Shown here piece after piece: positions 3,690 through 37,700 of a stretch of DNA of 64,000 nt; position 1 is the stretch's first letter, and each line of letters opens with the position of its first letter. The position numbers and the translations under genes are program-made. Under the pieces are notes generated by a model. The model saw only the letters and a list, made by a program, of their open reading frames with translations. It did no database searches and was not told the DNA's origin. Origin of the DNA: a plasmid; sequence record NZ_CP088228.1. One strand, given 5' to 3'.

Positions 3690-3743
3690 TTTTTATTTAA
3701 TGTGAAATTTTCCCTTCGCTTTATATCTCCCGTAAGAAATTAC

Positions 3744-3930
3744 CCGCCGTGCCTTCACGCTAACCCGGCCGCTGCGGTCGCAAGGGTTCACGTTGTCTCC
3801 GTCCTCACCCGTTCGCGCCCTGCACGGTGCATTCAGCCCGTGAAGGGCTTGCGCTGCGGCTTCGGCGTCGCCCTGGCGTCCTCCGCTTTACGCCGTGTTT
3901 TTGTGGCGGCACGGCGCAAGAGGGTGCCGG
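3744..3930 (+). repeat. GC-rich ~190-bp leading-region repeat, family B copy 1 (ssi/Frpo-like candidate)
   Basis: Near-identical copies at 4728-4916 and 6470-6652; conserved 10-bp stem/10-nt loop (cacggtgcattcagcccgtg core) plus complementary termini; ends about 18 bp before ORF 3948. Confidence 0.7.
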
Positions 3931-3947
3931 ATGCTGAGGACACAACC

Positions 3948-4415
3948 ATGTTCAGACTGACCTGTATTGAACTCGATAACGGCGAGTTTGCCGTCTATAT
4001 CAATCACCATTACCTGGGGAGTGAAGATGCCAGCGGAGAGCGACTTTCTCTGGGGGAGGTTCTGGAGCAGCTCTCCCTGCTGCCGGGCGTGGAATTACAG
4101 ACCCTGCTGGAACCCGTACCGGAGTGCGATGACTGGTGCTGGAACGACATCGCCGATCGCGTCCTGCCGTCGCGTCCTGCATGTCGTGATGATGTGACGG
4201 TGGCAGGGCTCATCGCCAGGCTGAAGCAGTACCCACCGGATGCACTGTGTATGGGGACGTTCTGGCTGGAAGATGATTTTCTGTCGCTTGATGACAGTCT
4301 GTCGGAGGAAGAAATTGCAGAAGCCATGCGTATCTGCGACCACAGCCACGATGCAGGCATCGGTTTTAACTGGGACACGCTGCAGTTCGCTATCGACCAC
4401 GTGAAGGGGCGCTGA
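3948..4415 (+). CDS. Hypothetical acidic protein (155 aa) downstream of repeat B1
   Basis: ORF with ATG at 3948 (MFRLTCIELDNGEF...); about 21 percent Asp+Glu. Confidence 0.55.
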   Translation: MFRLTCIELDNGEFAVYINHHYLGSEDASGERLSLGEVLEQLSLLPGVELQTLLEPVPECDDWCWNDIADRVLPSRPACRDDVTVAGLIARLKQYPPDALCMGTFWLEDDFLSLDDSLSEEEIAEAMRICDHSHDAGIGFNWDTLQFAIDHVKGR

Positions 4416-18137: not shown

Positions 18138-18959
18138 ATGGTCAGTTTCGCAAGCCGCTATCGTATGCCTACATCGATCCGCAAAGACCGTCCGCTGACG
18201 AATGATGAATTACAGCGCATCGTTCCGAGCGCGTTCTCATCGGATAAACACGATTCACGCTCTGAACGTTATACGTATATCCCGACCATTAACATTCTTG
18301 ATCGCTTACGTGATGAAGGTTTTCAGCCATATTATGCAACTCAGTCACGTACACGTGACCAGGATAAACGCGACTTTACAAAGCATATGCTTCGCCTGCG
18401 CCGTCATGACCAGATTAACGGAAAAGAAGTGCCGGAAATTATTCTGCTGAATAGCCATGATGGTTCAAGCAGCTATAAAATGATCCCCGGCATGTTCCGT
18501 CAGGTTTGCAGTAATGGTCTGGTTGCATGGAAGGATTTTGGTGAAATCCGCGTACCCCACAAAGGGGATATTGTCGGGCAGGTTATTGAAGGCGCTTACA
18601 CGGTGCTGAAAACATTCGACGCGGTTGATGAAAATATAGACCTCATGAAAAGCATTCAGCTCACTTTGCCTGAGCAGCGCCTTTTGGGTGCGACCGCCCT
18701 GGAACTTAAATACGATGGAAAACCAGCGCCGATTACACCGGAGCAAATTATTAACCCTCGCCGTGTGCTCGACAGAGGCCAGGATTTATGGACCACGTTT
18801 AACGTGGTGCAGGAAAATGTGATCCGTGGGGGAATTCGTGGCAGAACGGAAAAAGGGAAGATGACCAGAACGCGGGAAGTCACCGGAATAGATGGTGACA
18901 TCAAATTAAATCAGGTGCTCTGGAAAATGGCGGAGGAGTTTGCAAAACTGAAGGCCTGA
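18138..18959 (+). CDS. DUF932-type conserved leading-region protein (273 aa)
   Basis: Size, position next to oriT/geneX and sequence character of the ~270-aa protein conserved in IncF leading regions. Confidence 0.6.
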   Translation: MVSFASRYRMPTSIRKDRPLTNDELQRIVPSAFSSDKHDSRSERYTYIPTINILDRLRDEGFQPYYATQSRTRDQDKRDFTKHMLRLRRHDQINGKEVPEIILLNSHDGSSSYKMIPGMFRQVCSNGLVAWKDFGEIRVPHKGDIVGQVIEGAYTVLKTFDAVDENIDLMKSIQLTLPEQRLLGATALELKYDGKPAPITPEQIINPRRVLDRGQDLWTTFNVVQENVIRGGIRGRTEKGKMTRTREVTGIDGDIKLNQVLWKMAEEFAKLKA

Positions 18960-18987: not shown

Positions 18988-19527
18988 TTACTGTTCGTTG
19001 TTAAGCGATGCTGTTTCAGTAGTTTTTATCTCATGCTCCTTACCCGCAACTGGCGCCAGGCGTTCAGAAAGTAACTTTTTTCTGGCCAACAAAACGCGAT
19101 ATATATTTTTGATATCCTGAGCATACGCCTTGCGCTGCACAATCAGCTTTTTGCTCGGCCCAGTATTATACATCCCCACGCTGTCCCAGTTTTTTCCGTA
19201 TGACCTGAAGTTGTGCGCCAGTACCCATGCACCCGTATAAACGCAGATACATGGATCATTCAGCAGGCGCTCACGGGTAATATTGAAGTTTTTAAGTTTA
19301 CCGTAATGAGAGCTGTTTACCTGCATCCCACAGACATCTTCTGTTCCATTCCTGTTAGATCCATTTATCGCACCCGGCTTAAGTCTGCTCTCTTTAATCG
19401 AAATTGACATAAGCAGCAGTGGATCAATTTGATAATCTTTCCCGGCCTGATCAAAGCACATTTGTGGAGCTGCGCCAGCAGACATGGAAAGGGTCAGCAA
19501 TGCCGCAGGTAGTATCGATATTTTCAT
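18988..19527 (-). CDS. Lytic transglycosylase (F geneX/orf169, R1 gene 19 homologue)
   Basis: 179 aa with signal peptide and SLT catalytic segment KESRLKPGAIN...GMQVNSSH; collinear with F Orf169. Confidence 0.8.
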   Translation of the reverse strand: MKISILPAALLTLSMSAGAAPQMCFDQAGKDYQIDPLLLMSISIKESRLKPGAINGSNRNGTEDVCGMQVNSSHYGKLKNFNITRERLLNDPCICVYTGAWVLAHNFRSYGKNWDSVGMYNTGPSKKLIVQRKAYAQDIKNIYRVLLARKKLLSERLAPVAGKEHEIKTTETASLNNEQ

Positions 19528-19639
19528 GGTTTGGCCTTTTAGCGAAATAAACGGGCTCTGGAGAGGCGCTTTAAAAAATACCCCGGCGGATCGTCGTAAT
19601 CAAGTAAATTCACTACAAACGCGCGTGAGCGCTCTCCCG

Positions 19640-20110
19640 AAGGGATTTAACACCTGTCCGAAATAAACATGCCAGAACGGTAGACGGTATTAACATGCCG
19701 CTCTTTACTAACCCTTTTAAACATCACACCCCACGCAAGACTTCGTCTTGCAGATTTTTTCTTTTAATTCATATATATACCTGTGCTTATTATGCGGAAT
19801 TATGCTGTGTGAACGATAAAGGTGTGTGCATCAGCACACATTGCAGTGCCTGAACCCCACACACTACAGTGCCTAATCAAGCACTGTAGTGTGTGCTAAT
19901 CCAGCACTGCTGAGTGTGGGGATTGTGTGTATTCAATAAATAGAGTAACTTAAAAATGGGTAGTGCCTGATGAACACACATCACAGTGCCTGATGCACAC
20001 ACATGGTGGTGCCTGATGCACACACATGACAGTGCCGGATTAGCACACATCCAAAAGCCAGATTCACGCAAATCCTCAGTAAGTTACAGAACAACGTAAC
20101 TCCGGGAACT
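19640..20110. other. oriT: F-type origin of transfer (oriT) with nick site and TraM-binding repeats
   Basis: Minus strand reads gcaagacgaagtcttgcGTGGGGTGT|GATG, matching F gcaaaaacttgtttttgcGTGGGGTGT|GGTG (nick between + positions 19726/19727); downstream direct/inverted repeats cacacaYNRYRGTGCC x6 (19840-20045) resemble sbm TraM sites. Confidence 0.75.
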
Positions 20111-20171
20111 GACATATAAGTAGCATTGCAGTGCCGCATCAGGCACTGCATGAAATTTTTGAGAAAATATC

Positions 20172-20558
20172 ATGCCAAGAAAGAACATCTACTTTAAAGA
20201 TAAAATTGACAGAGAAATAAATGATATTCTTGAGATTGAGTTACAAAAGGGCGCAACAACGTCTGACATGAACTATTCTTCAATAGTCAACGAATTAGTT
20301 CGACTCGGACTGATGGTATACAAATCAAAGGAAGAGGGCTCAACTTTCGATCTCGATGGTTTCCGACGCGACCTCATTAAGAAAGTCTCTGGCTCACGTG
20401 AAGGTATTATGATTCTCACCGCACTTGTCTCTGATATCTTTGTCACGATGAAGGGGCCAGACTCTGGAGTGAAGCTTGAAGAACTGATAAATGCCAACAT
20501 CAGCTCGATTAACGATGCAGAAGATAAGGCTGAAAAAGACCACTTCCTGACGGATTAA
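20172..20558 (+). CDS. traM: TraM, oriT-binding relaxosome accessory protein
   Basis: 128 aa; N-terminal RHH-like MPRKNIYFKDKIDREINDILE and C-terminal tetramerisation-like region, position next to oriT. Confidence 0.8.
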   Translation: MPRKNIYFKDKIDREINDILEIELQKGATTSDMNYSSIVNELVRLGLMVYKSKEEGSTFDLDGFRRDLIKKVSGSREGIMILTALVSDIFVTMKGPDSGVKLEELINANISSINDAEDKAEKDHFLTD

Positions 20559-20595
20559 TTATTGGTTTCAGGCCGGACTTTTCCGGCCCTGTCGA

Positions 20596-21237
20596 TCACT
20601 GAGGCTCACCCTCATCCCACGGAAGGTCTTCCTTTTCCACCTCCGTGATTTTTTCTTTTAAAAAAACTTCAAATTCCATACACAACACTTTCAGCGCCTG
20701 CGCATCCTCATTCTGGTCAAGCAATCTCTCAGTAAAATATCCAAGCGTATTCATTAACCTGGTGAGTATTTCGTCATTCAGACTACGGTTATGCACCTTC
20801 GCCATTGCCCTGATTTCATCTGCAAGGTTTTCAGGAATTCGCATGCTATATCCGGTTGTTTTCCCCGGAAGCAAAACTCTTTCACCCTCACGCCACATCC
20901 ACAATTGCTCCTGCTTGGGCGAGGATTTAATTTCTTCAGCAACATCAACAGATTCACCATCAAGTAATTGCCCTAACCACTCTTCAAATCTCACCGCCAG
21001 AGCAATGAGCCGTTCACCCTCCGCAGTTTTAATGACAGGCTTGCCGGGCTGATAATTCAGCGACAACAAAAGCCTGGCAATAATTTCCTCATTCACACTT
21101 CTGTTGCCAGCTCTGGCACATATTCTCAGCTCCATAAGCAGATTATCCGGTGCACGCAATCGCCACTCCACCGCCTCACCTGGCTGGAACTTGCGTGGAC
21201 GGCCGCGACCATCCCACATTTTTTCTTTTACTTTCAT
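20596..21237 (-). CDS. Tandem Arc-type ribbon-helix-helix DNA-binding protein (213 aa)
   Basis: Two Arc-like modules (...ARAGNRSVNEEIIARLL... and ...AKVHNRSLNDEILTRLM...); convergent with traM. Confidence 0.6.
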   Translation of the reverse strand: MKVKEKMWDGRGRPRKFQPGEAVEWRLRAPDNLLMELRICARAGNRSVNEEIIARLLLSLNYQPGKPVIKTAEGERLIALAVRFEEWLGQLLDGESVDVAEEIKSSPKQEQLWMWREGERVLLPGKTTGYSMRIPENLADEIRAMAKVHNRSLNDEILTRLMNTLGYFTERLLDQNEDAQALKVLCMEFEVFLKEKITEVEKEDLPWDEGEPQ

Positions 21238-21326
21238 AGCTATAGATCCCGTAGGCCATTTCCGAACTTACTGGTCAACAAAGCCTACCCACTTACACAT
21301 TCGGATAAATCTGAATGGTTCCTAAA

Positions 21327-21358
21327 AGTGTGACATGCGTCACAGTTTTTTTTTTTTA
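21327..21358 (+). terminator. Stem-loop plus T12 run (plus-strand terminator-like)
   Basis: gtgtgacatgcgtcacag followed by tttttttttttt. Confidence 0.45.
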
Positions 21359-21409
21359 GGGTCATGGGACAATTGCGCCCGCGTAAAGGGGTCCGCTTGG
21401 AAAACGGAA

Positions 21410-22736
21410 TCTATGGTCACTCCCGTTTTTGCAACACCGATTTTGACGACAAGTTGGCTTGCTTGAATCTATCCGGCGTCTGAATGGGATTTTATTCCCG
21501 CGCCTTGATGAGTTCCGCGCCTGATGAACCTCCAGAAAATATACGGCTTCAATGAGCCTTTCCGTTTTACAGGTTCCTCAACAGGCCGGTGGGCCGTTAG
21601 TATCATCAATATCAGTATTCGCAAAACCAGATCAGTAATTCTTTAAACCGGTGTATTTCTGCCGTTATGCTACATAAGTTTGCTGTCGTGCCGTTAGGGC
21701 CCAGGCTATTCTGGCCAGCTTGTTTGCCAGAGCACAAGTGACGACAAAGTTGCTTTTCCGGCACAGTAAATCCCTGACCCAATCGGCCAATTTGCCAGAC
21801 TGGTGTTCCAGTTTTTGTATGAATACCCTGGCACATTGAACCAACAAAGTTCGGATCTTTTTATTACCTCGCTTACTAATTCCCAGCAATGTCGTCCTAC
21901 CTCCCGTGCTGTACTGCCGAGGTACAAGCCCTGTTGCCGCCGCAAAGTCACGGCTGCTGGCGTACTGCTTCCCGTCGCCAATCTCAGTTGAAATAGTACT
22001 CGCTGTCAGTGTTCCGACGCAGGGAATGCTCAGCAAGCGCTGTCCAACCTCATCTTCGTCCAACTTTCGTTTCAACTGGGATTCCAAATCTTTAATCTGC
22101 TCAACAAGATAGTGATAATGCTGTTGTAATTTCAGCAATAACTGGCTGAGGTAAAGAGGCAAACTATTATCCTCAAGAATGGTACTCAGTCGGCTAATAA
22201 CGGCAGCTCCTCGGGGAACGCTAATGCCAAATTCCAGCAGAAAAGCATGCATTTGATTGGTTGTTTTTACCTTATCCTGAACCAGGGATTCACGGACACG
22301 ATGCAGAGCCCGCATTGCCTGCTGAGATTCCGTTCTGGGCTGCACAAAACGCATAGACGGACGCGATGCAGCTTCACAAATAGCTTCGGCGTCGACAAAG
22401 TCGTTTTTATTGCTTTTAACGAACGGGCGGACAAATTGTGGTGATATCAGCTTTGGGGAATGCCCCAACTCTTCCAACTTGCGTGCCATAAAGTGAGAAC
22501 CGCCACAGGCTTCCATTGCGATGGTTGTAGCGGGGCATGTCGCCAAAAATTCGATCAACTTTGGCCGGGTAAATTTTTTACGGTAAACAGCCTTCCCGCG
22601 ACGATCCTGGCAATGAATATGGAAAGAGTTTTTACCCAGATCGATACCAATGAGCGCAATGTTTTCCATGATAGTTCTCCGAATGAAAGCCTGTCCTCAG
22701 CATAGTACCGGGAAGGAGGGAGTGACCATCTCATTA
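21410..22736 (-). mobile_element. IS5075/IS4321-like IS110-family element (1327 bp) inserted in transposon IR
   Basis: Exactly 1327 bp between the two IR parts; identical inverted copy at 30494-31820; this family is known to target Tn21-family IRs. Confidence 0.8.
21665..22669 (-). CDS. IS110-family transposase (334 aa)
   Basis: MENIALIGIDLGKNSFHIHCQD... DEDD-type IS110 transposase N-terminus. Confidence 0.85.
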   Translation of the reverse strand: MENIALIGIDLGKNSFHIHCQDRRGKAVYRKKFTRPKLIEFLATCPATTIAMEACGGSHFMARKLEELGHSPKLISPQFVRPFVKSNKNDFVDAEAICEAASRPSMRFVQPRTESQQAMRALHRVRESLVQDKVKTTNQMHAFLLEFGISVPRGAAVISRLSTILEDNSLPLYLSQLLLKLQQHYHYLVEQIKDLESQLKRKLDEDEVGQRLLSIPCVGTLTASTISTEIGDGKQYASSRDFAAATGLVPRQYSTGGRTTLLGISKRGNKKIRTLLVQCARVFIQKLEHQSGKLADWVRDLLCRKSNFVVTCALANKLARIAWALTARQQTYVA

Positions 22737-22747
22737 AATATCCTACG

Positions 22748-25732
22748 CTAAGCCTCTTTTTTGTACAGACTGACATCAACTGTGCGTAACGGTCGATATT
22801 TACCGGATCCCAGCTTAAGATTATTACGCCAGATGTAATCTCCGCTCAGGTTGATATGCTCCCAGCCCAGAGGGGACAGGTGAGAAACCAACGGCTCATT
22901 AATCTGGAGCCCCTTTCGTTTTAGTGATTCGATGGCCCTTTCTATATACACCGTGTTCCACAACGTGATCGCCGCAGTCAACAGCGTCAGCCCGCTGGCG
23001 CGATAGCTTTGATTTTCCAGCCCCCTGTCTCTTATTTCGCCCAACCGGTGCATAAAAACGGCCCGCGCAAGCGCATTGCGGGCTTCACCCTTATTTAAAC
23101 CGGCTTGCACACGACGACGCAGGGCCGGATCGCGAAACCAGTCCAGCATAAACAACGTTCGCTCGATACGGCCAATTTCCCGTAACGCTTTTGCCAGGCC
23201 GTTTTGTTTGGGGTAGCTGGCCAACTTTTTTAACATCAGCGAGGCGGTTACCGTGCCCTGCTTGATCGAGGTCGCCAGGCGCAGTACCTCATTCCAGTGT
23301 GTCTCAATTTCTTTGAGATTCAGACTGGTCGTGGATATGATTGACTGAAGCCCAGAATATTTTTCCGCCTTTCCATGAATGAATAGCCGTTTGTCATGGA
23401 GATCCCGGATCCTTGGTGCAAATGCAAACCCAAGTAGATGCATTAGCGCAAAAACATGTTCAGTGAAACCCGCTGTATCGGTGTAATGCTCCGTAATTTC
23501 CAGGTCGCTTTCGTGATAGAGCAACCCATCCAGCACATGGGTAGAGTCCCTGACCCGGCTGATCACTTTGGTATAAAATGGGCTGTATTGGTCTGATATA
23601 TGTGTATAAACCTGCACGCCGGGTTCCTGACCGTACTTTAAATTCACCTGTCCGGCATAGCGGCCATGACTTCCGACTCGAAAATTCTGGCCGTCGGAGG
23701 ATGACGTTGTACCGTCCCCCCATGATGCTGCCAGTGGGCACTTTTTTTGTGCATTCACTAGTTCGGCAAGCGCGGCTGCATACGTTTCATCCCTGATGTA
23801 CCATGCCTGAATGCTTTCCAGCGACGCTTTTGTGGTTCCCGGGCAGGATTCTGCCATTTTAGTCAGCCCCAGGTTGATACCATCTGCCAGGATGGTGGTC
23901 AGCAACAGCTTTTTGTCTTTTGGTCTGACGTGATTATTTTTGAGGTGAGTAAAGTGGCGGGTAAATCCCGTCCAACTGTCCACTTCATCTAATATCTCGG
24001 TAATTTTTGGGTGCGGCAGCATGCCGTAAACCAGGTCGGCAAACGGTGATACAATCGAAGGAACGCTGTTATCAAGAGGCGTGACCTTCACACCTTTGTC
24101 CGATATATCAACATCAGGCAAATCACCGGCAATCGCCATCGCATTGACCTCTTCCAGTCGCGACGCCAGCAGTGTCATACGGGAGTGAAGGTATTCCTGG
24201 CAGTCTGTCGGAATGGCAAGCTGTAACTGTTTCTCTTTGAGTGATTTTTCAAAATCAGCAGGAGGAATGAGGTAATCGTCAAAATTCCTGTAGCGTCGTG
24301 ATCCTCTAACCCAGATATCACCAGATCGCAATGCGCCTTTCAGCTCATTCAGTACACAGAATTCATAATACCGGCGATCGATACCCGATGGCGTTATTAC
24401 CAACTTTTTCCAGCTCTCAGGGATAAACTTTACTGGCGCTGTTGACGGAACCTTGCGGAGTTGTTTGCGGTACATTTCTCTGACGGTATCCAGCGCATCA
24501 CCGAGTGGCAGTGCTGAAGGGGCTGCACTGAACTGCAATGCAGACAACATACGGGGCGCATATTTACGCAGCGTGCTGTATTTTTCGGTGATCAGATGAA
24601 GCGGATCAAAATTATCCTTTCGGGCCAGAAACTGTGTTTCCTCCAGACTGGTGATAAATTCCGGCCAGGGAAGTACGTCTTCTATCGCCGCCCAGGGATC
24701 TTCTCCTGACTCCCGTGCGTTTAGCAGCGCCTGCCCAACAGTAAGATATTGCCTTAACTTGCTCTGGATGAGTTTTCCTGTTTTCTGAAGCCGTTCGGCT
24801 TGTGTGCGCTTTGCCCTGCTGAACAAGCTACCCAGGATACGTTCGTGTAGTTCGATGATTTCATCGGTAAGCGTTGCCCTTGCTTCTGAGATAATACAAA
24901 CCAGCACGGCATAACGACGTGTGCCGGAGAATTTTGCCAGGTCCCTGCTACTCATTTTCCGGCCTTCGCGAGCCAGTTTCAGCAGTCGGTTCTGGTGAAC
25001 GGAAAGCGTAATACCTTCCGGCAGTGCCAACCCCTCAATGGCATTCAACCGATCAATATGTTGCAGCACGTTTTTACCGTTAATCTTACCCGGGGGCTGA
25101 AGCAGCCAGGCAAGACGGGAAAGTTGCTCATCACCTGATGCAAGCAGATTATCCAGTGCTGTTTTATGTCGTTGTTCCAGTTGCGTCGTCAGTGTAGAAA
25201 ATACGGCTCTGTCTGCAAGTGTTGCGGCTTCAGCAAGGGTTCGCTCCATCACATCAACGGAAGGGAAAATAACGTTGTTGTTGTGCAACCAAGCGAGCAT
25301 CTCTTCAGCAAGAATCAGGCCTTTGTCGGTCCGCATGGCGTGCGGATATAAATGGCGGATGCATGTTTTTTGCAATGACCTGTTGAAAGGCACTAATCCC
25401 AAGTAGCGATAGAGTTCGGCAAGATGCTCCCAACGGGTTTCCTCCCTCGTTGCGTACTCTCGCCATAAATCAGGTTGAAGTTTCAATCTCTCTGCCACTC
25501 TGGACATAACGCCATCGTGAGGGAGACTGTTTTTGTCTGGAGTAAAACCCGGCCCTCGCAGATAACAGAGTAAAACGGCAAAGCCCAGGCGGTTAGCGGG
25601 TCTCCGGTGTTTGTTGATGAGGACCAGATCCTGCTCACTTAAAAAGCACATCCTGGTTAGCAGAATGTCATCATCCGGCACAATCAGTAAGCGTTCTTTT
25701 TCATCACTGCTCAGTATCTGTCGCCGTGGCAT
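22748..25732 (-). CDS. tnpA: Tn3-family transposase TnpA (994 aa)
   Basis: Size and sequence of Tn21/Tn3 TnpA; stop codon lies within inner IR. Confidence 0.9.
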   Translation of the reverse strand: MPRRQILSSDEKERLLIVPDDDILLTRMCFLSEQDLVLINKHRRPANRLGFAVLLCYLRGPGFTPDKNSLPHDGVMSRVAERLKLQPDLWREYATREETRWEHLAELYRYLGLVPFNRSLQKTCIRHLYPHAMRTDKGLILAEEMLAWLHNNNVIFPSVDVMERTLAEAATLADRAVFSTLTTQLEQRHKTALDNLLASGDEQLSRLAWLLQPPGKINGKNVLQHIDRLNAIEGLALPEGITLSVHQNRLLKLAREGRKMSSRDLAKFSGTRRYAVLVCIISEARATLTDEIIELHERILGSLFSRAKRTQAERLQKTGKLIQSKLRQYLTVGQALLNARESGEDPWAAIEDVLPWPEFITSLEETQFLARKDNFDPLHLITEKYSTLRKYAPRMLSALQFSAAPSALPLGDALDTVREMYRKQLRKVPSTAPVKFIPESWKKLVITPSGIDRRYYEFCVLNELKGALRSGDIWVRGSRRYRNFDDYLIPPADFEKSLKEKQLQLAIPTDCQEYLHSRMTLLASRLEEVNAMAIAGDLPDVDISDKGVKVTPLDNSVPSIVSPFADLVYGMLPHPKITEILDEVDSWTGFTRHFTHLKNNHVRPKDKKLLLTTILADGINLGLTKMAESCPGTTKASLESIQAWYIRDETYAAALAELVNAQKKCPLAASWGDGTTSSSDGQNFRVGSHGRYAGQVNLKYGQEPGVQVYTHISDQYSPFYTKVISRVRDSTHVLDGLLYHESDLEITEHYTDTAGFTEHVFALMHLLGFAFAPRIRDLHDKRLFIHGKAEKYSGLQSIISTTSLNLKEIETHWNEVLRLATSIKQGTVTASLMLKKLASYPKQNGLAKALREIGRIERTLFMLDWFRDPALRRRVQAGLNKGEARNALARAVFMHRLGEIRDRGLENQSYRASGLTLLTAAITLWNTVYIERAIESLKRKGLQINEPLVSHLSPLGWEHINLSGDYIWRNNLKLGSGKYRPLRTVDVSLYKKEA

Positions 25733-25786
25733 AAATGCTCTCCCTGCATACGGACGCTGTCCGCTTGGACGTTCAAAATATACGCA

Positions 25787-26410
25787 TCAAGAACATGCTT
25801 TGAGTTTAACAATGCGTATAACCGTTCGTTCTGAAACGCCACACAACCTTGCGGTATCACGGATGCTCTGCCTGTTTTTAACCCGAAGCTCTATGATTTT
25901 TTCATGCAATTGATGATCTGCCTGACGTCCCCGAAATTTACCGGCCACCTTGGCTTTCGCTATCCCTTCCTCTTGGCGCCGGCGACGATCCTGATAGTCT
26001 TTGCGAGCTATGGCGGCCAGCATATCAAGCATCATTCCGTTAATAGCCTTAAGTATTGCAAGGGTAAAGTCATCGCCAGCATGTGTTGCAAGAGCCATAT
26101 GGCTCGTTGGGAGGTCAAGACTGACAACCACAAGGTGTTTTTCCTGGATAAGATGCTTTAGTTTTTGCCAGCCCTCTTCATCCAGGCGCGAAAGGCGATC
26201 AACCTGCTCGATGAGAATAATGTCACCAGGTGCAGCATCATCAAGTAACCGTAAAAGTTCTGGCCGTTGAAGTGATGCCCCGGATACATTTTCGGTGTAC
26301 CAACTGGCCAGCCGAAATCCTTTTTCTTCAACAAAGGCTTTCATCCGATTTTTTGCTCGGAGAGCATCCTGTTCTTTTGTTGATGCGCGGAGGTAACCAT
26401 GAATGTACAT
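25787..26410 (-). CDS. tnpR: Serine recombinase/resolvase TnpR (207 aa)
   Basis: N-terminal catalytic YLRASTKEQ and C-terminal HTH. Confidence 0.85.
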   Translation of the reverse strand: MYIHGYLRASTKEQDALRAKNRMKAFVEEKGFRLASWYTENVSGASLQRPELLRLLDDAAPGDIILIEQVDRLSRLDEEGWQKLKHLIQEKHLVVVSLDLPTSHMALATHAGDDFTLAILKAINGMMLDMLAAIARKDYQDRRRRQEEGIAKAKVAGKFRGRQADHQLHEKIIELRVKNRQSIRDTARLCGVSERTVIRIVKLKACS

Positions 26411-26834
26411 TTTTCACCCATTTATGACGTTTAAGTGATGATCATAATGTACGTGACAGATAGGTGATGATCCAAGGGGAAAATGGCGACACTTTAGGCT
26501 ATGACACTGGGGTATACATTAATGGCACATTTAATCCATGATTGACCCTGTTTCAGTTTCGTTTATAGTAAGACGCTGTTTGCCTTGGCAGACTCCGCGG
26601 CCAGCCTTGAATATCTTCATCTGGTTTATCTGATCCCTGAAGGTGTACACACCGACCATCAAGGAGTAATAAAAACTACCATGCATATGACGCCACCCTG
26701 AGTTTTCCCCTTCTCTGTCGTTCTGAGTAACCCTCAGCGCGCACTCTTTAACATCCCGTCTGCGGATGTGCTTTACCGTATCTAAATTTTTTGCCCTTTA
26801 CGGGCTGACTGTATTCAAAAACTGAGAAACGACT
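26411..26834. other. Probable res region between tnpR and cargo
   Basis: Inferred from Tn21-type organisation (res upstream of tnpR); subsites not individually resolved. Confidence 0.4.
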
Positions 26835-28313
26835 ATGTTGCTGTCCTCGACGCGTAAGGACTGGCTGGGTAACGTCCGTGGAGACGTCCTCGCCGGTATT
26901 GTTGTCGCGCTCGCGCTTATCCCTGAAGCGATCGCCTTTTCCATCATCGCTGGTGTTGACCCGCAAGTTGGGCTCTACTCTGCGTTTTGTATCCCGCTGA
27001 TAATCGCCATCTGTGGTGGTCGTCCAGGGATGATATCTTCGTCAACCGGTGCTATGGCATTGCTGATGGTCACCCTAGTGAAGGACCACGGCTTGCAGTA
27101 TTTACTGGCAGCCACCGTTCTTACAGGTGTGATTCAGCTTATTGCGGGCTATCTGAAGCTTGGAAGCCTGATGCGCTATGTTTCCCGCTCGGTAGTTACC
27201 GGTTTTGTTAATGCGCTGGCGATCCTCATTTTCATGGCGCAGTTGCCGGAGTTGACCAACGTCACCTGGCACGTTTACGCCCTGACGGCGGCCGGTCTAG
27301 GCATTATTTATCTGTTCCCGTACCTCAATAAAACCATCCCCTCGCCGCTGGTCTGCATCGTCGTGCTGACCGGGATCTCCATGTGGCTGCATCTGGACGT
27401 ACGCACTGTCGGCGACATGGGTAAGTTGCCGGACAGCCTGCCAGTATTTCTGTTACCCGATGTACCTCTCAATCTCGATACCCTATTAATCATTCTGCCT
27501 TATTCCGCCGGCCTTGCCGTGGTGGGGCTGCTTGAGTCAATGATGACCGCGACTATTGTGGATGACATGACCGATACACCGAGCGACAAGAACCGGGAAT
27601 GCAAAGCACAGGGTATCGCCAACATTGGCGCCGCATTTATTGGCGGTATGGCTGGGTGCGCGATGATCGGTCAGTCGGTGATCAACGTGAAATCTGGGGG
27701 GCGTGGCCGCCTCTCCGCACTCACTGCGGGCGTTGTCCTGCTTTGTATGGTGGTTTTCCTGCGTGACTGGGTCTCACAAATCCCAATGGCGGCCCTGGTC
27801 GCGGTCATGATCATGGTCTCTATCGGTACCTTCTCCTGGGGGTCGATCGCTAACTTACGCAGCCATCCACTGTCAACCAGTGTCGTCATGCTGGCCACCG
27901 TGGTGGTAGTGGTCGCCACGCATAATCTGGCGTATGGCGTCTTAACCGGCGTTCTGATTGCCTCATTGAACTTTGCCACCAAAGTGGCCCGTTTTATGGC
28001 GGTGTCGTCCGAACTTAAAGCGTCAACGCGGATCTACACCGTAGCCGGTCAGGTGTTCTTTGCTTCTGCCGATCGGTTCATGAGCCACTTCGATTTTCGC
28101 GAAGCGGTGGAGCACGTAGTCATTGACGTCTCACATGCCCATTTCTGGGATATTACGTCGGTCAGCGCACTCGACAGGGTGGTTATTAAGTTCCGCCGTG
28201 AAGGCACGAACGTGGAAATCCGTGGAATGAATCAGGCTACCCGCACAATTGTTGACCGCTTCGGGGTGCATGACAAACCTGAAGAAGTGGAAAAATTAAT
28301 GGGCGGCCATTAA
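26835..28313 (+). CDS. SulP-family anion transporter with C-terminal STAS domain (492 aa)
   Basis: Multiple TM segments, SulP-like N-terminus, C-terminal STAS-like region. Confidence 0.75.
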
Positions 28314-28330
28314 CAGTCAGGAGAACAGAG

Positions 28331-29158
28331 ATGAACAATACCGTTATTGCCTGCGTTGACGGCTCACCGTCTACCCGACCTGTGTGCGAATACGCGGCCT
28401 GGGCCGCCAATCTGCTGGATGCGCCGCTGTCCCTGCTGCACGTACTGGAGAAAGACGTACATCCTGCCGTGTCAGATTTGACCGGAAGTATCGGCATTGA
28501 TAGCCAGGCGCATCTCACCGAAGAGTTGGTGAAAGTTGAAGGAGAGCGTAACCGATTATTAATGGCACAGGGCAAAGCCATACTGGCTAGCTGTGCGAAG
28601 TTGCTGAATGATGCTGGTCATGCTGATGTTCAATTACTGCAAAAACATGGCGCGTTGGATGAAATCCTGGCTGATTTAGGGGATGTTCGCCTGATGGTGC
28701 TGGGCCGCCGTGGAACGCAGAACCCGGTTGGCAGCCACCTGGAAAGCATTATTCGCCTGCAGAAAAAACCGGTACTTATCGTGCCGGAGGCTTATTCTCC
28801 ACCATCCAAAGTTATGTTCGCCTATGATGGCAGCGATGAGAGTCGCAAAAACCTGACGCGCCTGACACTTAGCCCGCTACTCAATGGCCTGGTTTGCCAC
28901 CTCGTGATGGTTAAGGGGGATACACGAGCCTTGCAGGAAGCACAGAGTGTGCTGCAAGCAGCTGGCATCGCGACCGAAAGCCACCTACTGGAAGGTACAT
29001 CCGTTGCTGAGGCGCTCTGCCGTCACGCTAATGAAAACGACATTAACCTGATTGTGATGGGTGCCTATGGCCATTCGCCATTGCGGCGATTCTTTATCGG
29101 CAGCAACACCACCGCCATGTTGGAAAAAACACAAATCCCACTCTTAATGCTGAGGTGA
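28331..29158 (+). CDS. Tandem-domain universal stress protein (UspA family, 275 aa)
   Basis: Two Usp-like halves (...VIACVDGS... and ...VLIVPEAYSPP...GAYGHSPLRRFFIGSNT...). Confidence 0.7.
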   Translation: MNNTVIACVDGSPSTRPVCEYAAWAANLLDAPLSLLHVLEKDVHPAVSDLTGSIGIDSQAHLTEELVKVEGERNRLLMAQGKAILASCAKLLNDAGHADVQLLQKHGALDEILADLGDVRLMVLGRRGTQNPVGSHLESIIRLQKKPVLIVPEAYSPPSKVMFAYDGSDESRKNLTRLTLSPLLNGLVCHLVMVKGDTRALQEAQSVLQAAGIATESHLLEGTSVAEALCRHANENDINLIVMGAYGHSPLRRFFIGSNTTAMLEKTQIPLLMLR

Positions 29159-29162
29159 TTAT

Positions 29163-29186
29163 TGTCCCCGGAAATAACTCCGGGGA
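29163..29186 (+). terminator. Stem-loop after uspA
   Basis: gtccccggaaataactccggggac. Confidence 0.5.
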
Positions 29187-29218
29187 CAAATAAATACATT
29201 CAATTTACTGGAGTGAAC

Positions 29219-29968
29219 ATGAAACATGAAATTGCGGTGAGTGTAATAATCCCCGTTTACAACGCAGAAAAAACCATCAAATCCTTGATCGAAGATATCT
29301 TATTAGAAGACAGGATCAACATTGAAGTTATTATCGTTAACGATGGTTCCTCAGACAACACGTCAACGATAATTAACTCCATAAAGGATGGCAGAGTTCA
29401 AGTTATTGAACAAAATAATAAAGGTGTATACGCGGCCAGAAATAATGGATTAGACAAGCATAAAGGCCAGTGGGTCATGTTTCTGGATGCCGATGACGAT
29501 GTGTCTGAAGGATTCATTTATAACAGGTACATCCAGGCTTCCAGCCATAATGCCGATGTGCTTTTGTCCAATGCCTGGAAGCTTTGGCATGAAAGCGATA
29601 ATAAAAAACCTGTACATACCAACCAACCTTATGATGAAATTTTATCCGGCAATGCGTGGGTAAGTCACGCAGTAAAAGTCAGGGAATGGCCACATTACCT
29701 TTGGTTACAGATAGTTAGATCTGACTATATCAGGAATAACAATCTGTCATTTCATGATGGCCGGAGTCATAAAGATATTTTATGGACGATGGAATTGGCG
29801 TTGGCAAATGGGCGTTTCTACATATCAAAAGATATGGACTACACCTACAAGTACAATAATGAATCCATCACAAATCGCGGTGATTATTTCGACGTCAGAG
29901 CAGAATGCTATATTGATGTAATATCTAAAACCATCGGCCACGCAAAGTCGAAAAAAATAATGATTTGA
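29219..29968 (+). CDS. Family 2 glycosyltransferase (GT2), low-GC
   Basis: VSVIIPVYNAEKTI...IIVNDGSSDNT...DADD GT2 signature; ATG 29219 with ggagtg RBS; local GC much lower than surroundings. Confidence 0.75.
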   Translation: MKHEIAVSVIIPVYNAEKTIKSLIEDILLEDRINIEVIIVNDGSSDNTSTIINSIKDGRVQVIEQNNKGVYAARNNGLDKHKGQWVMFLDADDDVSEGFIYNRYIQASSHNADVLLSNAWKLWHESDNKKPVHTNQPYDEILSGNAWVSHAVKVREWPHYLWLQIVRSDYIRNNNLSFHDGRSHKDILWTMELALANGRFYISKDMDYTYKYNNESITNRGDYFDVRAECYIDVISKTIGHAKSKKIMI

Positions 29969-30493
29969 GCGTATCGCTGTTTAGGCATGCCCTATATGAG
30001 GCCAGACACTTCCTTGGTTTATATAGAAAAAAGGTGAGGGGCAAATAAAAAATAAGGAGGTTATTTGTTAAAAAAATAGCATATAGAGATTTAGTAAAAG
30101 GTGTATATAGCCTTAGTGATATTTTCTTTTTACTAAAAGTTTTCGTAAAAACAAAAAAATTCACTGATGCTAGCCCGAAATTAAAATGGATAATTATATT
30201 TCTATTGGCTTAACATGGGGAATACTTATCTCGCTGCGAATGCCGTAGTTAATCCAGCGATACGTGACTGACGGTGAGTAATTGGTAGCATTATATCTTT
30301 CATTTTACCCTCCCATTACTGGGGATCCCTCAGTAATAGGTGGTCTTTCGTCTCCGCTTCCTTGGTATATGCAAACTTGATACGGGCACGATGAGCTATC
30401 AACATACTCGTGAGGTAGTATTGGTGATTTTTTAGCTATCACCATAGACCCGTGAAGCAATCTGTACGAAAAACAGGCTTAGCGTAGGATATT

Positions 30494-31820
30494 TAATGAG
30501 ATGGTCACTCCCTCCTTCCCGGTACTATGCTGAGGACAGGCTTTCATTCGGAGAACTATCATGGAAAACATTGCGCTCATTGGTATCGATCTGGGTAAAA
30601 ACTCTTTCCATATTCATTGCCAGGATCGTCGCGGGAAGGCTGTTTACCGTAAAAAATTTACCCGGCCAAAGTTGATCGAATTTTTGGCGACATGCCCCGC
30701 TACAACCATCGCAATGGAAGCCTGTGGCGGTTCTCACTTTATGGCACGCAAGTTGGAAGAGTTGGGGCATTCCCCAAAGCTGATATCACCACAATTTGTC
30801 CGCCCGTTCGTTAAAAGCAATAAAAACGACTTTGTCGACGCCGAAGCTATTTGTGAAGCTGCATCGCGTCCGTCTATGCGTTTTGTGCAGCCCAGAACGG
30901 AATCTCAGCAGGCAATGCGGGCTCTGCATCGTGTCCGTGAATCCCTGGTTCAGGATAAGGTAAAAACAACCAATCAAATGCATGCTTTTCTGCTGGAATT
31001 TGGCATTAGCGTTCCCCGAGGAGCTGCCGTTATTAGCCGACTGAGTACCATTCTTGAGGATAATAGTTTGCCTCTTTACCTCAGCCAGTTATTGCTGAAA
31101 TTACAACAGCATTATCACTATCTTGTTGAGCAGATTAAAGATTTGGAATCCCAGTTGAAACGAAAGTTGGACGAAGATGAGGTTGGACAGCGCTTGCTGA
31201 GCATTCCCTGCGTCGGAACACTGACAGCGAGTACTATTTCAACTGAGATTGGCGACGGGAAGCAGTACGCCAGCAGCCGTGACTTTGCGGCGGCAACAGG
31301 GCTTGTACCTCGGCAGTACAGCACGGGAGGTAGGACGACATTGCTGGGAATTAGTAAGCGAGGTAATAAAAAGATCCGAACTTTGTTGGTTCAATGTGCC
31401 AGGGTATTCATACAAAAACTGGAACACCAGTCTGGCAAATTGGCCGATTGGGTCAGGGATTTACTGTGCCGGAAAAGCAACTTTGTCGTCACTTGTGCTC
31501 TGGCAAACAAGCTGGCCAGAATAGCCTGGGCCCTAACGGCACGACAGCAAACTTATGTAGCATAACGGCAGAAATACACCGGTTTAAAGAATTACTGATC
31601 TGGTTTTGCGAATACTGATATTGATGATACTAACGGCCCACCGGCCTGTTGAGGAACCTGTAAAACGGAAAGGCTCATTGAAGCCGTATATTTTCTGGAG
31701 GTTCATCAGGCGCGGAACTCATCAAGGCGCGGGAATAAAATCCCATTCAGACGCCGGATAGATTCAAGCAAGCCAACTTGTCGTCAAAATCGGTGTTGCA
31801 AAAACGGGAGTGACCATAGA
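30494..31820 (+). mobile_element. IS5075/IS4321-like IS110-family element (second, inverted copy)
   Basis: Identical to 21410-22736 in opposite orientation, inserted in the other transposon IR. Confidence 0.8.
30561..31565 (+). CDS. IS110-family transposase (334 aa)
   Basis: Identical protein to 21665-22669. Confidence 0.85.
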   Translation: MENIALIGIDLGKNSFHIHCQDRRGKAVYRKKFTRPKLIEFLATCPATTIAMEACGGSHFMARKLEELGHSPKLISPQFVRPFVKSNKNDFVDAEAICEAASRPSMRFVQPRTESQQAMRALHRVRESLVQDKVKTTNQMHAFLLEFGISVPRGAAVISRLSTILEDNSLPLYLSQLLLKLQQHYHYLVEQIKDLESQLKRKLDEDEVGQRLLSIPCVGTLTASTISTEIGDGKQYASSRDFAAATGLVPRQYSTGGRTTLLGISKRGNKKIRTLLVQCARVFIQKLEHQSGKLADWVRDLLCRKSNFVVTCALANKLARIAWALTARQQTYVA

Positions 31821-31847
31821 TTCCGTTTTCCAAGCGGACCCCAGACA

Positions 31848-37364: not shown

Positions 37365-37700
37365 TACGATCTCCATCAATAATATGTCCCCGCCCGGGGT
37401 CACAGGTTGCACCAGAAAAAGGGCAACAGGTTATCAGACCCGGCGGTTCCTAAGCGAAACTATTTTTTAATGACTAGTACCCAATCAGTGAGTTATCTCT
37501 GGTACCCGGCCTGAGTCGCCGGTAGCGGTATTGGGATACAAAGCGGAGCAGCCAGCTGGCCGTTTACCGAAGGGAAAAGATGAAGACGTCCTTCAGACTG
37601 CGCAACAGGGGAAGCAGCGTAGTCCGGAGTTCCGCCTCCTCTGTTCAGACAGTACCGGATATGACAGCAGCACGGCTGCCACCGGCATTACTGTTACGGT

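What the first reader, a model, noticed from the sequence alone, without database searches (positions are those of the whole stretch)
20596..21387. Convergent tandem-Arc repressor where traJ should be, with an upstream terminator-like hairpin suggesting an antisense RNA
- Immediately after traM the expected traJ/traY are missing.
- A 213-aa minus-strand protein with two Arc-type RHH modules ends 38 bp from the traM stop.
- Its 5' UTR contains a plus-strand hairpin plus T12 (21327-21358), with no plus-strand gene upstream.
- That terminator could end a FinP-like antisense RNA complementary to the RHH gene leader.
- This is an unusual regulatory replacement of the traJ-finP node in a plasmid that has lost its tra operon.
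Basis: inference. Interest (0 to 1): 0.55.

Follow-up and report, generated by a model that had tools for sequence, protein, structure and literature searches.

The report
Known EntFR regulator with CRP-type promoter site
The two-domain DNA-binding gene next to traM is EntFR, a putative regulator already described for Enterobacter-type F-like plasmids. The "terminator hairpin" upstream of it looks like a host CRP-type protein-binding site in the control region shared with the lost pilus operon, not the end of an antisense RNA.

Summary
A 213-aa minus-strand ORF (20596-21237) has two Arc-type RHH modules and ends 37 bp from the traM stop. Upstream lie a 6-bp palindrome (21329-21344) and a T12 run (21346-21357).

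The arrangement is neither new nor peculiar to this plasmid. All 14 annotated relatives inspected, including conjugative ones, read traM -> <- tandem-RHH, ~200 bp, -> traA, with no traJ or traY. Fernandez-Lopez et al. 2016 (PMC5102898) named this protein EntFR in "Group D" MOBF12 plasmids and proposed a TraY-like or TraJ-like role. Its function is still untested.

The backbone here stops at 21387, where a Tn3-family transposon carrying IS4321 begins, 47 nt before where traA would start.

The FinP-like antisense-RNA idea is not supported:
- In 40 of 42 related loci the palindrome is kept as (T)GTGA-N6-TCAC(A), with a freely varying spacer and no compensatory changes.
- This is the CRP consensus. 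Two Buttiauxella loci have an FNR-like variant.
- It sits 49-50 or 60-61 nt (about one helical turn further) from a conserved -10-like hexamer for entFR, and 31 nt from one for traA.
- No plus-strand promoter or Rfam match was found.

The invariant T run and an invariant N-terminal AT-hook motif (RGRPRK) remain unexplained.

The parts
19528..20171 (.). oriT region with repeated CAGTGCC-type motifs, between the SLT lytic transglycosylase gene (18988-19527, -) and traM.
   Evidence: Searches give the sequence and the SLT and Tra_M Pfam hits. The SLT - oriT - traM order is the same in all annotated relatives. The nick site was not mapped.
20172..20558 (+). traM, the relaxosome protein TraM.
   Evidence: Pfam Tra_M E 1.9e-11. 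Annotated as 'relaxosome protein TraM' in relatives.
20569..20590 (.). GC-rich 8-bp hairpin between the convergent traM and entFR genes. No U tail on either strand.
   Evidence: -17.9 kcal/mol on the plus strand, -14.9 kcal/mol on the minus strand.
20596..21237 (-). entFR: a 213-aa tandem RHH protein. An RGRPRK AT-hook-like motif (residues 11-16) is followed by two modules, each beta-alpha-alpha plus a long helix.
   Evidence: Pfam Arc with two stretches. AF2 model elements: E22-30, H31-43, H48-59, H70-92 and E127-135, H136-148, H153-165, H177-202. Best PDB fold match is F TraY. 89% identical to the pENTAS01 protein. Named EntFR in PMC5102898.
21282..21287 (-). TAGGCT, a conserved -10-like hexamer and the predicted entFR promoter. 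The predicted transcription start is near 21275, giving a ~38-nt leader.
   Evidence: AGCCTA is invariant or TAnnCT-like in both clades while its flanks diverge. It was not experimentally mapped, and no -35 match was found.
21299..21316 (.). Conserved AT-rich box, an imperfect palindrome ATTCGGAT-AA-ATCTGAAT. It spans about -24 to -41 of the predicted entFR promoter. Candidate EntFR operator (inference).
   Evidence: The conserved core GA(T/A)AA(T/A)TC is seen in alignment A1. A different but also conserved box occupies this position in the Pantoea clade.
21329..21344 (.). TGTGA-CATGCG-TCACA, a CRP-consensus palindrome.
   Evidence: Core 10/10 to the CRP consensus. Expected 0.1 per window. Half-sites are conserved and N6 is variable across 31 distinct sequences from 40 loci. 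No covariation. Its centre is 49 nt from TAGGCT and 31 nt from GACAAT.
21346..21357 (.). T12 tract. Runs of 10-14 T are conserved in 40 of 42 related loci. Function unresolved.
21365..21373 (+). TGgGACAAT, an extended -10-like element and the predicted promoter of the lost traA/tra operon.
   Evidence: A conserved (G/T)A(C/T/A)A(A/C)T hexamer lies 23 nt after the palindrome in 33 of 40 loci. In intact relatives the traA ATG lies 47 nt beyond window position 21387. Not experimentally mapped.
21388..21409 (.). Outer part of a Tn3-family terminal inverted repeat (GGGGTCCGCTTGGAAAACGGAA). IS4321 is inserted in it; its transposase is at 21665-22669(-). This is where the F-like backbone ends.
   Evidence: Backbone homology ends at 21387. 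The same transposon/IS4321 segment occurs at 100% identity in many plasmids. The mirrored end lies at 31823-31844, and the flanking 5-mers differ (GTAAA vs AGACA), so there is no target-site duplication.

Best explanation
The 213-aa gene is entFR, the conserved double-RHH putative regulator that replaces traJ and traY in Group D (Enterobacter/Pantoea) F-like MOBF12 plasmids.

- Layout: in intact relatives entFR is transcribed divergently from the pilus/transfer operon (traA, traL, traE, traK, traB...) across a ~200-bp control region. The stretch 21238-21387 is the left three-quarters of that region, cut by a transposon end 47 nt before where traA would start.
- The hairpin: the 'hairpin' is most likely a binding site for the host CRP protein, TGTGA-N6-TCACA. 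Its centre would lie at about -61.5 from a conserved -10-like hexamer for entFR, a canonical class I activation position. The Pantoea clade has it 11-12 bp (about one helical turn) further, at about -72.5 to -73.5. It lies about -43.5 from an extended -10-like element for traA, close to but 2 bp off the class II position.
- Inferred model: entFR, and probably the tra operon, are tied to cAMP-CRP. This would mirror the reported CRP control of traJ in classical F-like plasmids.
- EntFR function: EntFR probably folds as an intramolecular RHH pseudo-dimer like F TraY. It probably acts as a TraY-like relaxosome accessory and promoter-binding factor, possibly also as the master switch.
- Shown versus inferred: gene identity, synteny, the conservation pattern, the spacing and the fold similarity are shown. 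The promoters, CRP binding and EntFR function are inferred.
- In this plasmid: entFR is an orphan left beside oriT and traM after transposon-associated loss of the tra operon.
For: - Synteny traM -> <- Arc-family gene, ~200 bp, -> traA traL traE traK traB, with no traJ or traY, holds in all 14 annotated loci. These span down to 40% protein identity and include conjugative plasmids.
- 248 plasmid records carry the protein; 158 are typed conjugative.
- The literature names it EntFR: a double RHH at the traJ locus of FinO- and TraJ-negative Group D plasmids (PMC5102898).
- The AF2 model has two beta-alpha-alpha-plus-helix modules. The best PDB matches are F TraY chains of the relaxosome cryo-EM structures, with probability 1.00, E 2e-3 and target-normalised TM 0.61-0.74.
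- The palindrome matches the CRP core 10/10, against 0.1 expected per window.
- In 40 of 42 loci GTGA and TCAC are nearly invariant while the N6 spacer takes about 20 different sequences.
- There are no compensatory changes: covariation score 0.123 against a shuffled mean of 0.150, with 473 of 500 shuffles at least as high.
- The outermost pair is broken in 7 of 31 distinct sequences. The Yokenella locus breaks two pairs. Two Buttiauxella loci carry TTGAT-N4-(A/G)TCAT, an FNR-like variant of the same transcription-factor family.
- The palindrome is identical (TGTGACATGCGTCACA) in the window and in Pantoea plasmids. Yet their EntFR beta-strand residues differ: VEWRLRAP/GYSMRIP against MQYRKLWLP/AFSSSFP. 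This argues for a conserved host factor rather than EntFR itself.
- Spacing is fixed at 49-50 nt or 60-61 nt to the TAnnCT hexamer. It is 23 nt from the palindrome end to the traA-side hexamer in 33 of 40 loci, despite a slippage-prone homopolymer in between.
- No full sigma-70 consensus promoter exists in the intergenic region, consistent with activator dependence.
- CRP is a known host factor for F-like conjugation and for the traJ promoter (Starcic et al. 2003, cited in PMC7762799).
Against: - No transcription start, CRP binding or EntFR binding data exist. The promoters are inferred from conserved hexamers only, and both lack a recognisable -35.
- The traA-side spacing (centre 31 nt from the hexamer) is 2 bp longer than the canonical class II spacing of 29 nt.
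- I used a consensus match, not a calibrated CRP weight matrix.
- A pure T10-14 run conserved at the sequence level is not explained by a CRP site or by spacing alone. It is exactly what an intrinsic terminator needs.
- In the window the hairpin plus flanking A/U pairs reaches -10.3 kcal/mol, so some termination cannot be excluded.
- RHH proteins can also recognise inverted repeats about 11 bp apart.
- Sequence similarity to TraY is not significant: hhalign probability 0.2%. Pfam TraY matched only 2 of 14 relatives, at E 0.012.
- The AF2 model is only moderately confident: mean pLDDT 60, RHH cores about 80.
Confidence: 0.62

Rival explanations
1. The palindrome plus T12 is a real intrinsic terminator, but only an insulator. 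It would stop stray plus-strand transcription (traM read-through or spurious antisense starts inside entFR) before it enters the tra promoter. It would not produce a regulatory RNA.
For: - The pattern scan calls it terminator-like: 6 pairs, 3 of them G-C, a loop of 4 and a T run.
- It folds at -10.3 kcal/mol with z -3.87 in the window, and reaches -16.6 kcal/mol in L006.
- The pure T run and an upstream A-rich stretch are conserved in 40 of 42 loci.
Against: - The stem is only 5-6 bp, and 4 bp in the CGTGA variants.
- Energies fall to between -2.3 and -5 kcal/mol in L003, L004, L013, L022, L030, L031 and L038, yet the T run is still kept there.
- No covariation.
- A stronger GC-rich hairpin already sits between traM and entFR.
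- No plus-strand promoter-like site lies upstream.
- The exact CRP core and the fixed spacing to hexamers on both strands would be coincidences.
Confidence: 0.12
2. One reading: a FinP-like antisense RNA of about 100 nt is made from the plus strand and ends at the T12 terminator. It would pair with the entFR leader to control its translation.
For: - A terminator-like element lies on the strand opposite to entFR, with no plus-strand gene upstream.
- The position is analogous to finP opposite the traJ leader.
Against: - No plus-strand promoter-like site lies between traM and the hairpin.
- No Rfam FinP or traJ 5' UTR match in the window or in pENTAS01.
- The hairpin is about 100 nt from the entFR ATG and does not overlap its ribosome-binding site.
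- The conserved -10-like hexamer places the entFR start near 21275. An RNA ending at 21357 would then overlap little or none of the mRNA.
- No covariation, and the hairpin is lost in several relatives.
- Group D plasmids are reported to lack FinO (PMC5102898).
Confidence: 0.04
3. The palindrome is the operator of a plasmid-encoded protein rather than of CRP. The candidate is EntFR itself: two tandem-RHH pseudo-dimers would bind half-sites 11 bp apart, with the AT-hook in the adjacent T tract.
For: - RHH repressors such as Arc and Mnt bind short inverted half-sites about one helical turn apart (established knowledge).
- The site lies in EntFR's own control region.
- The invariant RGRPRK motif sits next to an invariant T12.
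Against: - The half-sites are identical between clades whose EntFR beta-strand (DNA-reading) residues differ strongly.
- The sequence is the exact CRP core. Its only systematic variant is FNR-like, which points to the CRP/FNR family.
- A second perfect TGTGA-N6-TCACA with CRP-like flanks occurs elsewhere in the window (3674-3689), in an unrelated context.
Confidence: 0.15

Closest known systems
EntFR, the putative regulator of Group D MOBF12 (Enterobacter/Pantoea) F-like plasmids (Fernandez-Lopez et al. 2016, PMC5102898)
   Same: - Same locus, between traM and the tra operon where Group A plasmids have traJ.
- Same double-RHH prediction and same host range.
- 89% identical to the pENTAS01 protein.
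   Different: Nothing differs in the protein. In this window the downstream tra operon has been removed at a transposon junction. The paper does not mention the gene's opposite orientation, the CRP-type palindrome, the T12 run or the AT-hook motif.
F-plasmid TraY (relaxosome accessory protein and activator of the traY promoter; PDB 9f0x chain E)
   Same: - Two RHH repeats in one polypeptide.
- Best structural match in the PDB.
- Encoded next to oriT and traM in an F-type transfer region that has no other TraY candidate.
   Different: - 213 aa against 131 aa, with an extra long helix after each RHH and an N-terminal AT-hook-like motif.
- No significant sequence similarity.
- Encoded on the opposite strand with its own promoter, instead of as the first gene of the tra operon.
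traJ-finP/FinO fertility-inhibition node of classical F-like plasmids
   Same: Same map position, between traM and the tra operon. It is a plausible point where host signals enter transfer control. CRP is reported to act on the traJ promoter (Starcic et al. 2003, cited).
   Different: - No TraJ homologue and no FinP-like RNA.
- The family is reported to lack FinO.
- The protein is an RHH protein, not a TraJ-type one.
- The hairpin shows none of the FinP features.
cAMP-CRP-dependent divergent promoters (class I at -61.5 or -72.5, class II at -41.5; established knowledge, Busby and Ebright)
   Same: - Perfect TGTGA-N6-TCACA core.
- Half-sites conserved with a free spacer.
- 49 nt from the site centre to the -10-like hexamer, the same as at lac P1.
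- A shift of about one helical turn in the Pantoea clade.
   Different: - Binding and promoters are not demonstrated.
- The traA side is 2 bp off the class II position.
- An invariant T12 run abuts the site, which is not a usual CRP-promoter feature.
Phage P22 Arc/Mnt repressors and AmrZ (Pfam Arc, PF03869)
   Same: The RHH domain sequence matches this family.
   Different: Arc is a 53-aa single domain that dimerises. Here two domains are fused in one chain, each with an added helix, and the setting is a plasmid transfer region. Repressor activity is not established, and AmrZ shows that the family includes activators.

Membership tests
EntFR (Group D MOBF12 regulator) | Encoded at the traJ locus, between traM and the tra operon of an F-like (MOBF12/MPF_F) plasmid. 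| tested here: met
   traM lies immediately next to it in the window. In 14 annotated relatives traA, traL, traE, traK and traB follow on the other side.
EntFR (Group D MOBF12 regulator) | Two RHH domains in one polypeptide. | tested here: met
   Two Pfam Arc stretches. The AF2 model has two beta-alpha-alpha units.
EntFR (Group D MOBF12 regulator) | Close sequence relationship to the Enterobacter prototype protein. | tested here: met
   89% identity to the pENTAS01 (NC_015963) protein Entas_4537. That the paper's 'pENT01' is pENTAS01 is my inference.
EntFR (Group D MOBF12 regulator) | The plasmid lacks traJ and finO. | tested here: inconclusive
   traJ is absent from the locus. finO could not be assessed because the distal tra region is missing from the window.
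TraY (Pfam PF05509) | Significant sequence match to the TraY family. | tested here: not met
   The window protein has no TraY hit even at E up to 10. Two of 14 relatives hit at E 0.012. hhalign against F TraY gives probability 0.2%.
TraY (Pfam PF05509) | RHH fold, tandem as in F TraY. | tested here: met
   The top Foldseek PDB hits are F TraY chains: probability 1.00, E 2e-3, target-normalised TM 0.61-0.74. The model is only moderately confident.
TraY (Pfam PF05509) | First gene of the tra operon, co-directional with traA. | tested here: not met
   The gene is on the opposite strand, divergent from traA.
TraY (Pfam PF05509) | Binds oriT and the tra promoter and stimulates TraI nicking. | not testable with these tools
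   A k-mer comparison of the oriT and intergenic regions found no shared motif.
FinP-type antisense RNA | Own promoter on the strand opposite the regulator's leader. | tested here: not met
   No plus-strand promoter-like site between 20558 and 21329. This is a consensus scan only.
FinP-type antisense RNA | Stem-loops complementary to the target's ribosome-binding site or leader, supported by conserved structure. | tested here: not met
   There is a single 6-bp stem about 100 nt from the ATG. No covariation. No Rfam FinP match.
Intrinsic (Rho-independent) terminator | Stable G+C-rich stem followed by a U tract. | tested here: inconclusive
   The U tract is excellent (T12). The stem has only 6 bp, 3 of them G-C. 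Energy is -10.3 kcal/mol in the window with A/U extension, but -2.3 to -5 kcal/mol in several relatives.
Intrinsic (Rho-independent) terminator | Pairing maintained by compensatory change among relatives. | tested here: not met
   Covariation is at or below the shuffle expectation.
CRP binding site | Match to TGTGA-N6-TCACA with A/T-rich flanks. | tested here: met
   10/10 core match, with flanks AAAAG and G-T12.
CRP binding site | Half-sites conserved and central spacer free among orthologous regions. | tested here: met
   Across 31 distinct sequences T9, G10, A11, T18 and C19 are invariant, while the N6 columns are variable.
CRP binding site | Located at a canonical activation distance from a promoter. 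| tested here: inconclusive
   The centre is 49-50 or 60-61 nt from a conserved -10-like hexamer (about -61.5 and -72.5). It is 31 nt from the traA-side hexamer (-43.5, where class II is -41.5). The promoters are predicted, not mapped.
CRP binding site | Binding by cAMP-CRP and crp-dependent expression. | not testable with these tools
   Requires EMSA or footprinting and reporter assays.

The most novel reading that the evidence does not exclude
EntFR is a TraY-like tandem-RHH protein that has acquired a eukaryote-style AT-hook (invariant RGRPRK). The hook would dock in the minor groove of the equally invariant T12·A12 tract, wedged between a CRP site and the tra-operon -10 element.

CRP and EntFR would then form a compact two-input switch on a divergent promoter. 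This switch would replace the whole TraJ/FinP/FinO/TraY circuit in one lineage of F-like plasmids. The slippage-prone T run (10-14 T seen among relatives) could add heritable on/off tuning of transfer.
Probability: 0.15. Interest if true: 0.5.

Novelty: already known. Interest (0 to 1): 0.22.

Why it matters
Group D F-like plasmids carry clinically important genes in Enterobacter; this window itself carries mcr-10. How their transfer is switched on is unknown, because they lack TraJ, TraY and FinOP.

The core of the finding, a double-RHH gene at the traJ locus, was published in 2016, so by itself it adds nothing.

What this analysis adds is a concrete, testable map of the control region:
- a CRP-type site at fixed helical phase to conserved promoter-like elements on both strands;
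- an invariant T12 tract;
- an invariant AT-hook motif in the protein.

It also removes an attractive but unsupported antisense-RNA idea. For this particular plasmid the element is a remnant, since the operon it would control has been lost at a transposon junction.

Tried and rejected
- Antisense RNA or terminator. I folded the hairpin in the window and in 40 relatives and counted pairs on 31 distinct sequences. There was no covariation and the hairpin is weak or lost in several lineages. The plus-strand promoter scan was negative. Rfam at a permissive E-value returned only chance miRNA-type hits on oriT repeats.
- Sequence homology to TraY. hhalign was not significant and Pfam TraY gave only marginal hits in 2 of 14 relatives. 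Only the fold-level match holds.
- Shared EntFR/TraY-type binding motif between oriT and the entFR-traA region. A 7-mer sharing analysis over 14 plasmids gave nothing consistent.
- TAGGGT at the end of the T run as the traA -10. Rejected because the palindrome centre would then sit at -33.5 and the hexamer is not kept in the Pantoea clade.
- 'Compensation' between T-run length and flanks. On inspection the g+T12+10, ga+T12+9, g+T13+9 and T14+9 forms differ by substitutions, not indels. The valid statement is only that the 23-nt length is preserved.
- Wider family search. A profile HMM search of 1.84 billion representatives gave only 31 hits. About four are full-length clusters, and the distant ones are generic multi-Arc proteins. 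No informative characterised relatives emerged.
- Literature. No paper other than PMC5102898 mentions EntFR or this regulator.
- An early pair of fold calls on L003 and L004 used the wrong coordinates and should be ignored (second half).
Full report
**1. The observation**

The window contains, in order:
- a DUF932 gene (18138-18959, +);
- an SLT lytic transglycosylase gene (18988-19527, -);
- a repeat-rich oriT-like region;
- traM (20172-20558, +; Pfam Tra_M E 1.9e-11);
- a 213-aa minus-strand ORF (20596-21237) with two matches to the Arc RHH domain (PF03869, 55.1 bits, E 6.8e-15).

The two stop codons are 37 bp apart. A GC-rich 8-bp hairpin without a U tail lies between them.

Upstream of the ORF lie TGTGAC-ATGC-GTCACA (21329-21344), a G, and T12 (21346-21357). 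As RNA this folds at -10.3 kcal/mol, z -3.87. Neither the palindrome (0.1 expected per window) nor the T run (0.13 expected) is a chance feature.

**2.

Megablast against plasmids shows that backbone homology ends exactly at 21387.
- From 21388 runs a Tn3-family transposon whose terminal inverted repeat is interrupted by IS4321. The same segment occurs at 100% identity in many Klebsiella and Enterobacter plasmids.
- Its mirrored end is at 31823-31844, and the flanking 5-mers differ (GTAAA vs AGACA). This is therefore not a simple insertion; it is associated with a deletion or recombination.
- The closest backbone relative is pEk72-1 of E. kobei, an mcr-10 plasmid, which has a traA'-traI' remnant at this point. 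Window 31842-38457 matches its DsbA-to-mcr-10 region at 99.9%.
- No tra operon sequence from pENTAS01 beyond the control region is found in the window.

**3. What the gene is**

In the conjugative plasmid pENTAS01 of Enterobacter soli the order is SLT, oriT, traM(+), Arc-family gene(-), 196 bp, then traA, traL, traE, traK, traB....
- The same order, always without traJ or traY and with a ~200-bp gap, holds in all 14 annotated loci examined. They come from Enterobacter, Citrobacter, Escherichia, Salmonella, Kosakonia, Phytobacter, Yokenella, Pantoea and a Pectobacteriaceae isolate, and protein identity falls to 40%.
- tblastn finds the protein in 248 plasmid records, 158 of them typed conjugative.
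- A profile HMM search of 1.84 billion representative proteins finds only 31 hits, about four of them full-length clusters. The family is narrow and tied to this plasmid lineage.

The literature already describes it. Fernandez-Lopez et al. [quoted passage not shown] A conserved double-RHH protein sits at the traJ locus. They named it EntFR and suggested it is the functional homologue of TraY, or possibly of TraJ. No other paper in the searchable library mentions it. The paper does not discuss the cis elements analysed here.

**4. Anatomy of the protein**

The alignment and an AlphaFold2 model (mean pLDDT 60, RHH cores about 80) show an internal duplication. Each half is a beta strand, two helices and a long third helix:
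- E22-30, H31-43, H48-59, H70-92;
- E127-135, H136-148, H153-165, H177-202.

Fold and sequence comparisons:
- The best PDB fold matches are the TraY chains of the 2025 F-plasmid relaxosome cryo-EM structures: probability 1.00, E 2e-3, target-normalised TM 0.61-0.74. Permuted single-chain Arc comes next. I confirmed that chain 9f0x_E is TraY.
- At the sequence level the link to TraY is not significant, whereas the link to Arc/AmrZ is.
- The N-terminus carries RGRPRK, invariant in all 14 aligned sequences. This is the core of an AT-hook; Pfam AT_hook gives only weak hits because the motif is so short.

**5. The 'hairpin plus T12'**

I extracted the region upstream of the gene from 42 loci: the window, 13 plasmid loci, and 28 of the 29 genome loci.
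- 40 of the 42 keep the module.
- Among the 31 distinct sequences the positions GTGA and TCAC are invariant or nearly so. The six central bases take about 20 different forms.
- Counting pairs for the proposed stem shows no covariation. The score is 0.123 against a shuffled mean of 0.150, and 473 of 500 shuffles are at least as high. The outer pair is unpaired in 7 sequences and the inner pair in 9.
- Folding energies range from -16.6 down to -2.3 kcal/mol. The T run persists where the hairpin is essentially gone (L004, L013, L022, L030, L031).

This is the signature of a protein-binding site, not of a selected RNA structure. The sequence is the CRP consensus core, TGTGA-N6-TCACA (established knowledge).
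- The two Buttiauxella loci have TTGAT-N4-(A/G)TCAT. This differs from the CRP motif in the way FNR sites do.
- The palindrome is letter-for-letter identical in the window and in Pantoea plasmids, although the DNA-reading beta strands of their EntFR proteins have diverged. This favours a conserved host factor over EntFR as the ligand.

**6. Spacing**

On the entFR strand, a TAGGCT/TAnnCT hexamer (window 21287-21282) is conserved in both clades while its surroundings are not.
- The palindrome centre lies 49-50 nt upstream of it in the Enterobacter-type loci, and 60-61 nt upstream in the Pantoea clade.
- If this is the -10 element, these distances correspond to about -61.5 and -72.5. These are the classical class I CRP positions, one helical turn apart (established knowledge).

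On the traA strand, a TGn(G/T)A(C/T/A)A(A/C)T element lies 23 nt after the palindrome in 33 of 40 loci (centre to hexamer 31 nt).
- The seven exceptions differ only in the length of the T run, by 1-2 nt.
- This would put CRP at about -43.5, close to but not at the class II position.

No full sigma-70 consensus promoter is present, as expected for activator-dependent promoters. All promoter assignments are inference. CRP involvement has a precedent in F-like plasmids: crp mutants are defective in F conjugation, and cAMP-CRP regulates the pRK100 traJ promoter (PMC7762799, citing Starcic et al. 2003).

**7. The antisense-RNA proposal**

- No promoter-like site exists on the plus strand between traM and the hairpin.
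- There is no Rfam FinP or traJ-leader match in the window or in pENTAS01.
- The hairpin lies about 100 nt from the start codon, and upstream of the predicted entFR promoter rather than in its leader.
- The plasmid group is reported to lack FinO.

I rate this model at about 4%. A simple insulating terminator is somewhat more likely (about 12%), because the pure T run is otherwise unexplained.

**8. What remains unexplained**

A homopolymer of 10-14 T is conserved at the sequence level, not only in length, across plasmids whose EntFR proteins are only 40% identical. Options are:
- a terminator U tract;
- a rigid A-tract spacer in the tra promoter;
- an H-NS nucleation site;
- a docking site for the invariant AT-hook of EntFR.

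The two loci without the T run offer only anecdotal hints. L043 lies in a different upstream context and has RRPRK. L027 is a decayed copy on a 985-kb contig, with T8, a lost half-site and RGRPKK.

**9. Verdict**

The sequence features are real. The protein and its position are already published as EntFR, with function untested. The 'unusual replacement in a plasmid that lost its tra operon' is in fact the native Group D architecture, truncated here by a transposon. The antisense-RNA reading is not supported.

The most likely reading of 21238-21387 is the surviving part of a divergent, CRP-type-controlled entFR/traA promoter region. Interest is low to modest. The added value is a testable cis-regulatory map and the T12/AT-hook puzzle.

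Noticed in passing
window 20596-21237 (residues 11-16 of the protein) and 21346-21357: The N-terminal RGRPRK of EntFR is invariant down to 40% identity and equals the core of a eukaryotic AT-hook. It co-occurs with an invariant T10-14 tract in the gene's own control region. L043, a homologue without the T run, has RRPRK instead.
   Followed up: partly
window 3674-3689: This is the window's only other perfect TGTGA-N6-TCACA (TTTTGTGATGTAAATCACATTTTT, with CRP-like flanks). It lies 12 bp upstream of an ORF with no Pfam match (3702-4415, +) and downstream of parM/stbB (1069-2708).
   Followed up: no
window 35745-37412 (-) and 37731-38807 (-): A phosphoethanolamine transferase gene lies in a segment 99.9% identical to the mcr-10.1 region of E. 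kobei plasmid pEk72-1, next to a tyrosine recombinase (XerC-type) gene. The window therefore comes from an mcr-10-type Enterobacter IncF plasmid.
   Followed up: partly
window 21388-31844: A Tn3-family transposon has IS4321 (IS110 family) inserted in both terminal inverted repeats. It contains tnpA, a resolvase and a SulP transporter gene. The 5-bp flanks differ (GTAAA vs AGACA), so there is no target-site duplication. Compared with pEk72-1, it replaces the traA'-traI' remnant.
   Followed up: partly
L030 and L031 (Buttiauxella MAG contigs), upstream of the EntFR homologue: The CRP-type palindrome is replaced by TTGAT-CTGC-(A/G)TCAT, which resembles an FNR site. This may be a switch of host input from CRP to FNR in one sublineage.
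   Followed up: no
L002 9745-9790 and L005/L014 equivalents (lost from the window beyond 21387): The traA leader of intact relatives carries conserved short repeats. Enterobacter has GCGTAAAC-N6-CTTACGC. Pantoea has three TTACG motifs about 10 bp apart. They differ between clades, as would be expected for operators of the diverged EntFR proteins.
   Followed up: no
L015 (E. adelaidei plasmid) versus the window, oriT-traM region: The EntFR gene and control region are about 94% identical. The oriT-proximal repeats and traM are replaced by an unrelated variant, which suggests modular exchange of the TraM/oriT specificity unit independently of EntFR.
   Followed up: no
T run in L002/L019 (T11), L018 and L035 (T13), L025 (T14), L039 (T11), L040 (T10): Homopolymer length varies by 1-2 nt between otherwise near-identical control regions. 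This could be slipped-strand variation that changes promoter spacing, or it could be sequencing error.
   Followed up: no
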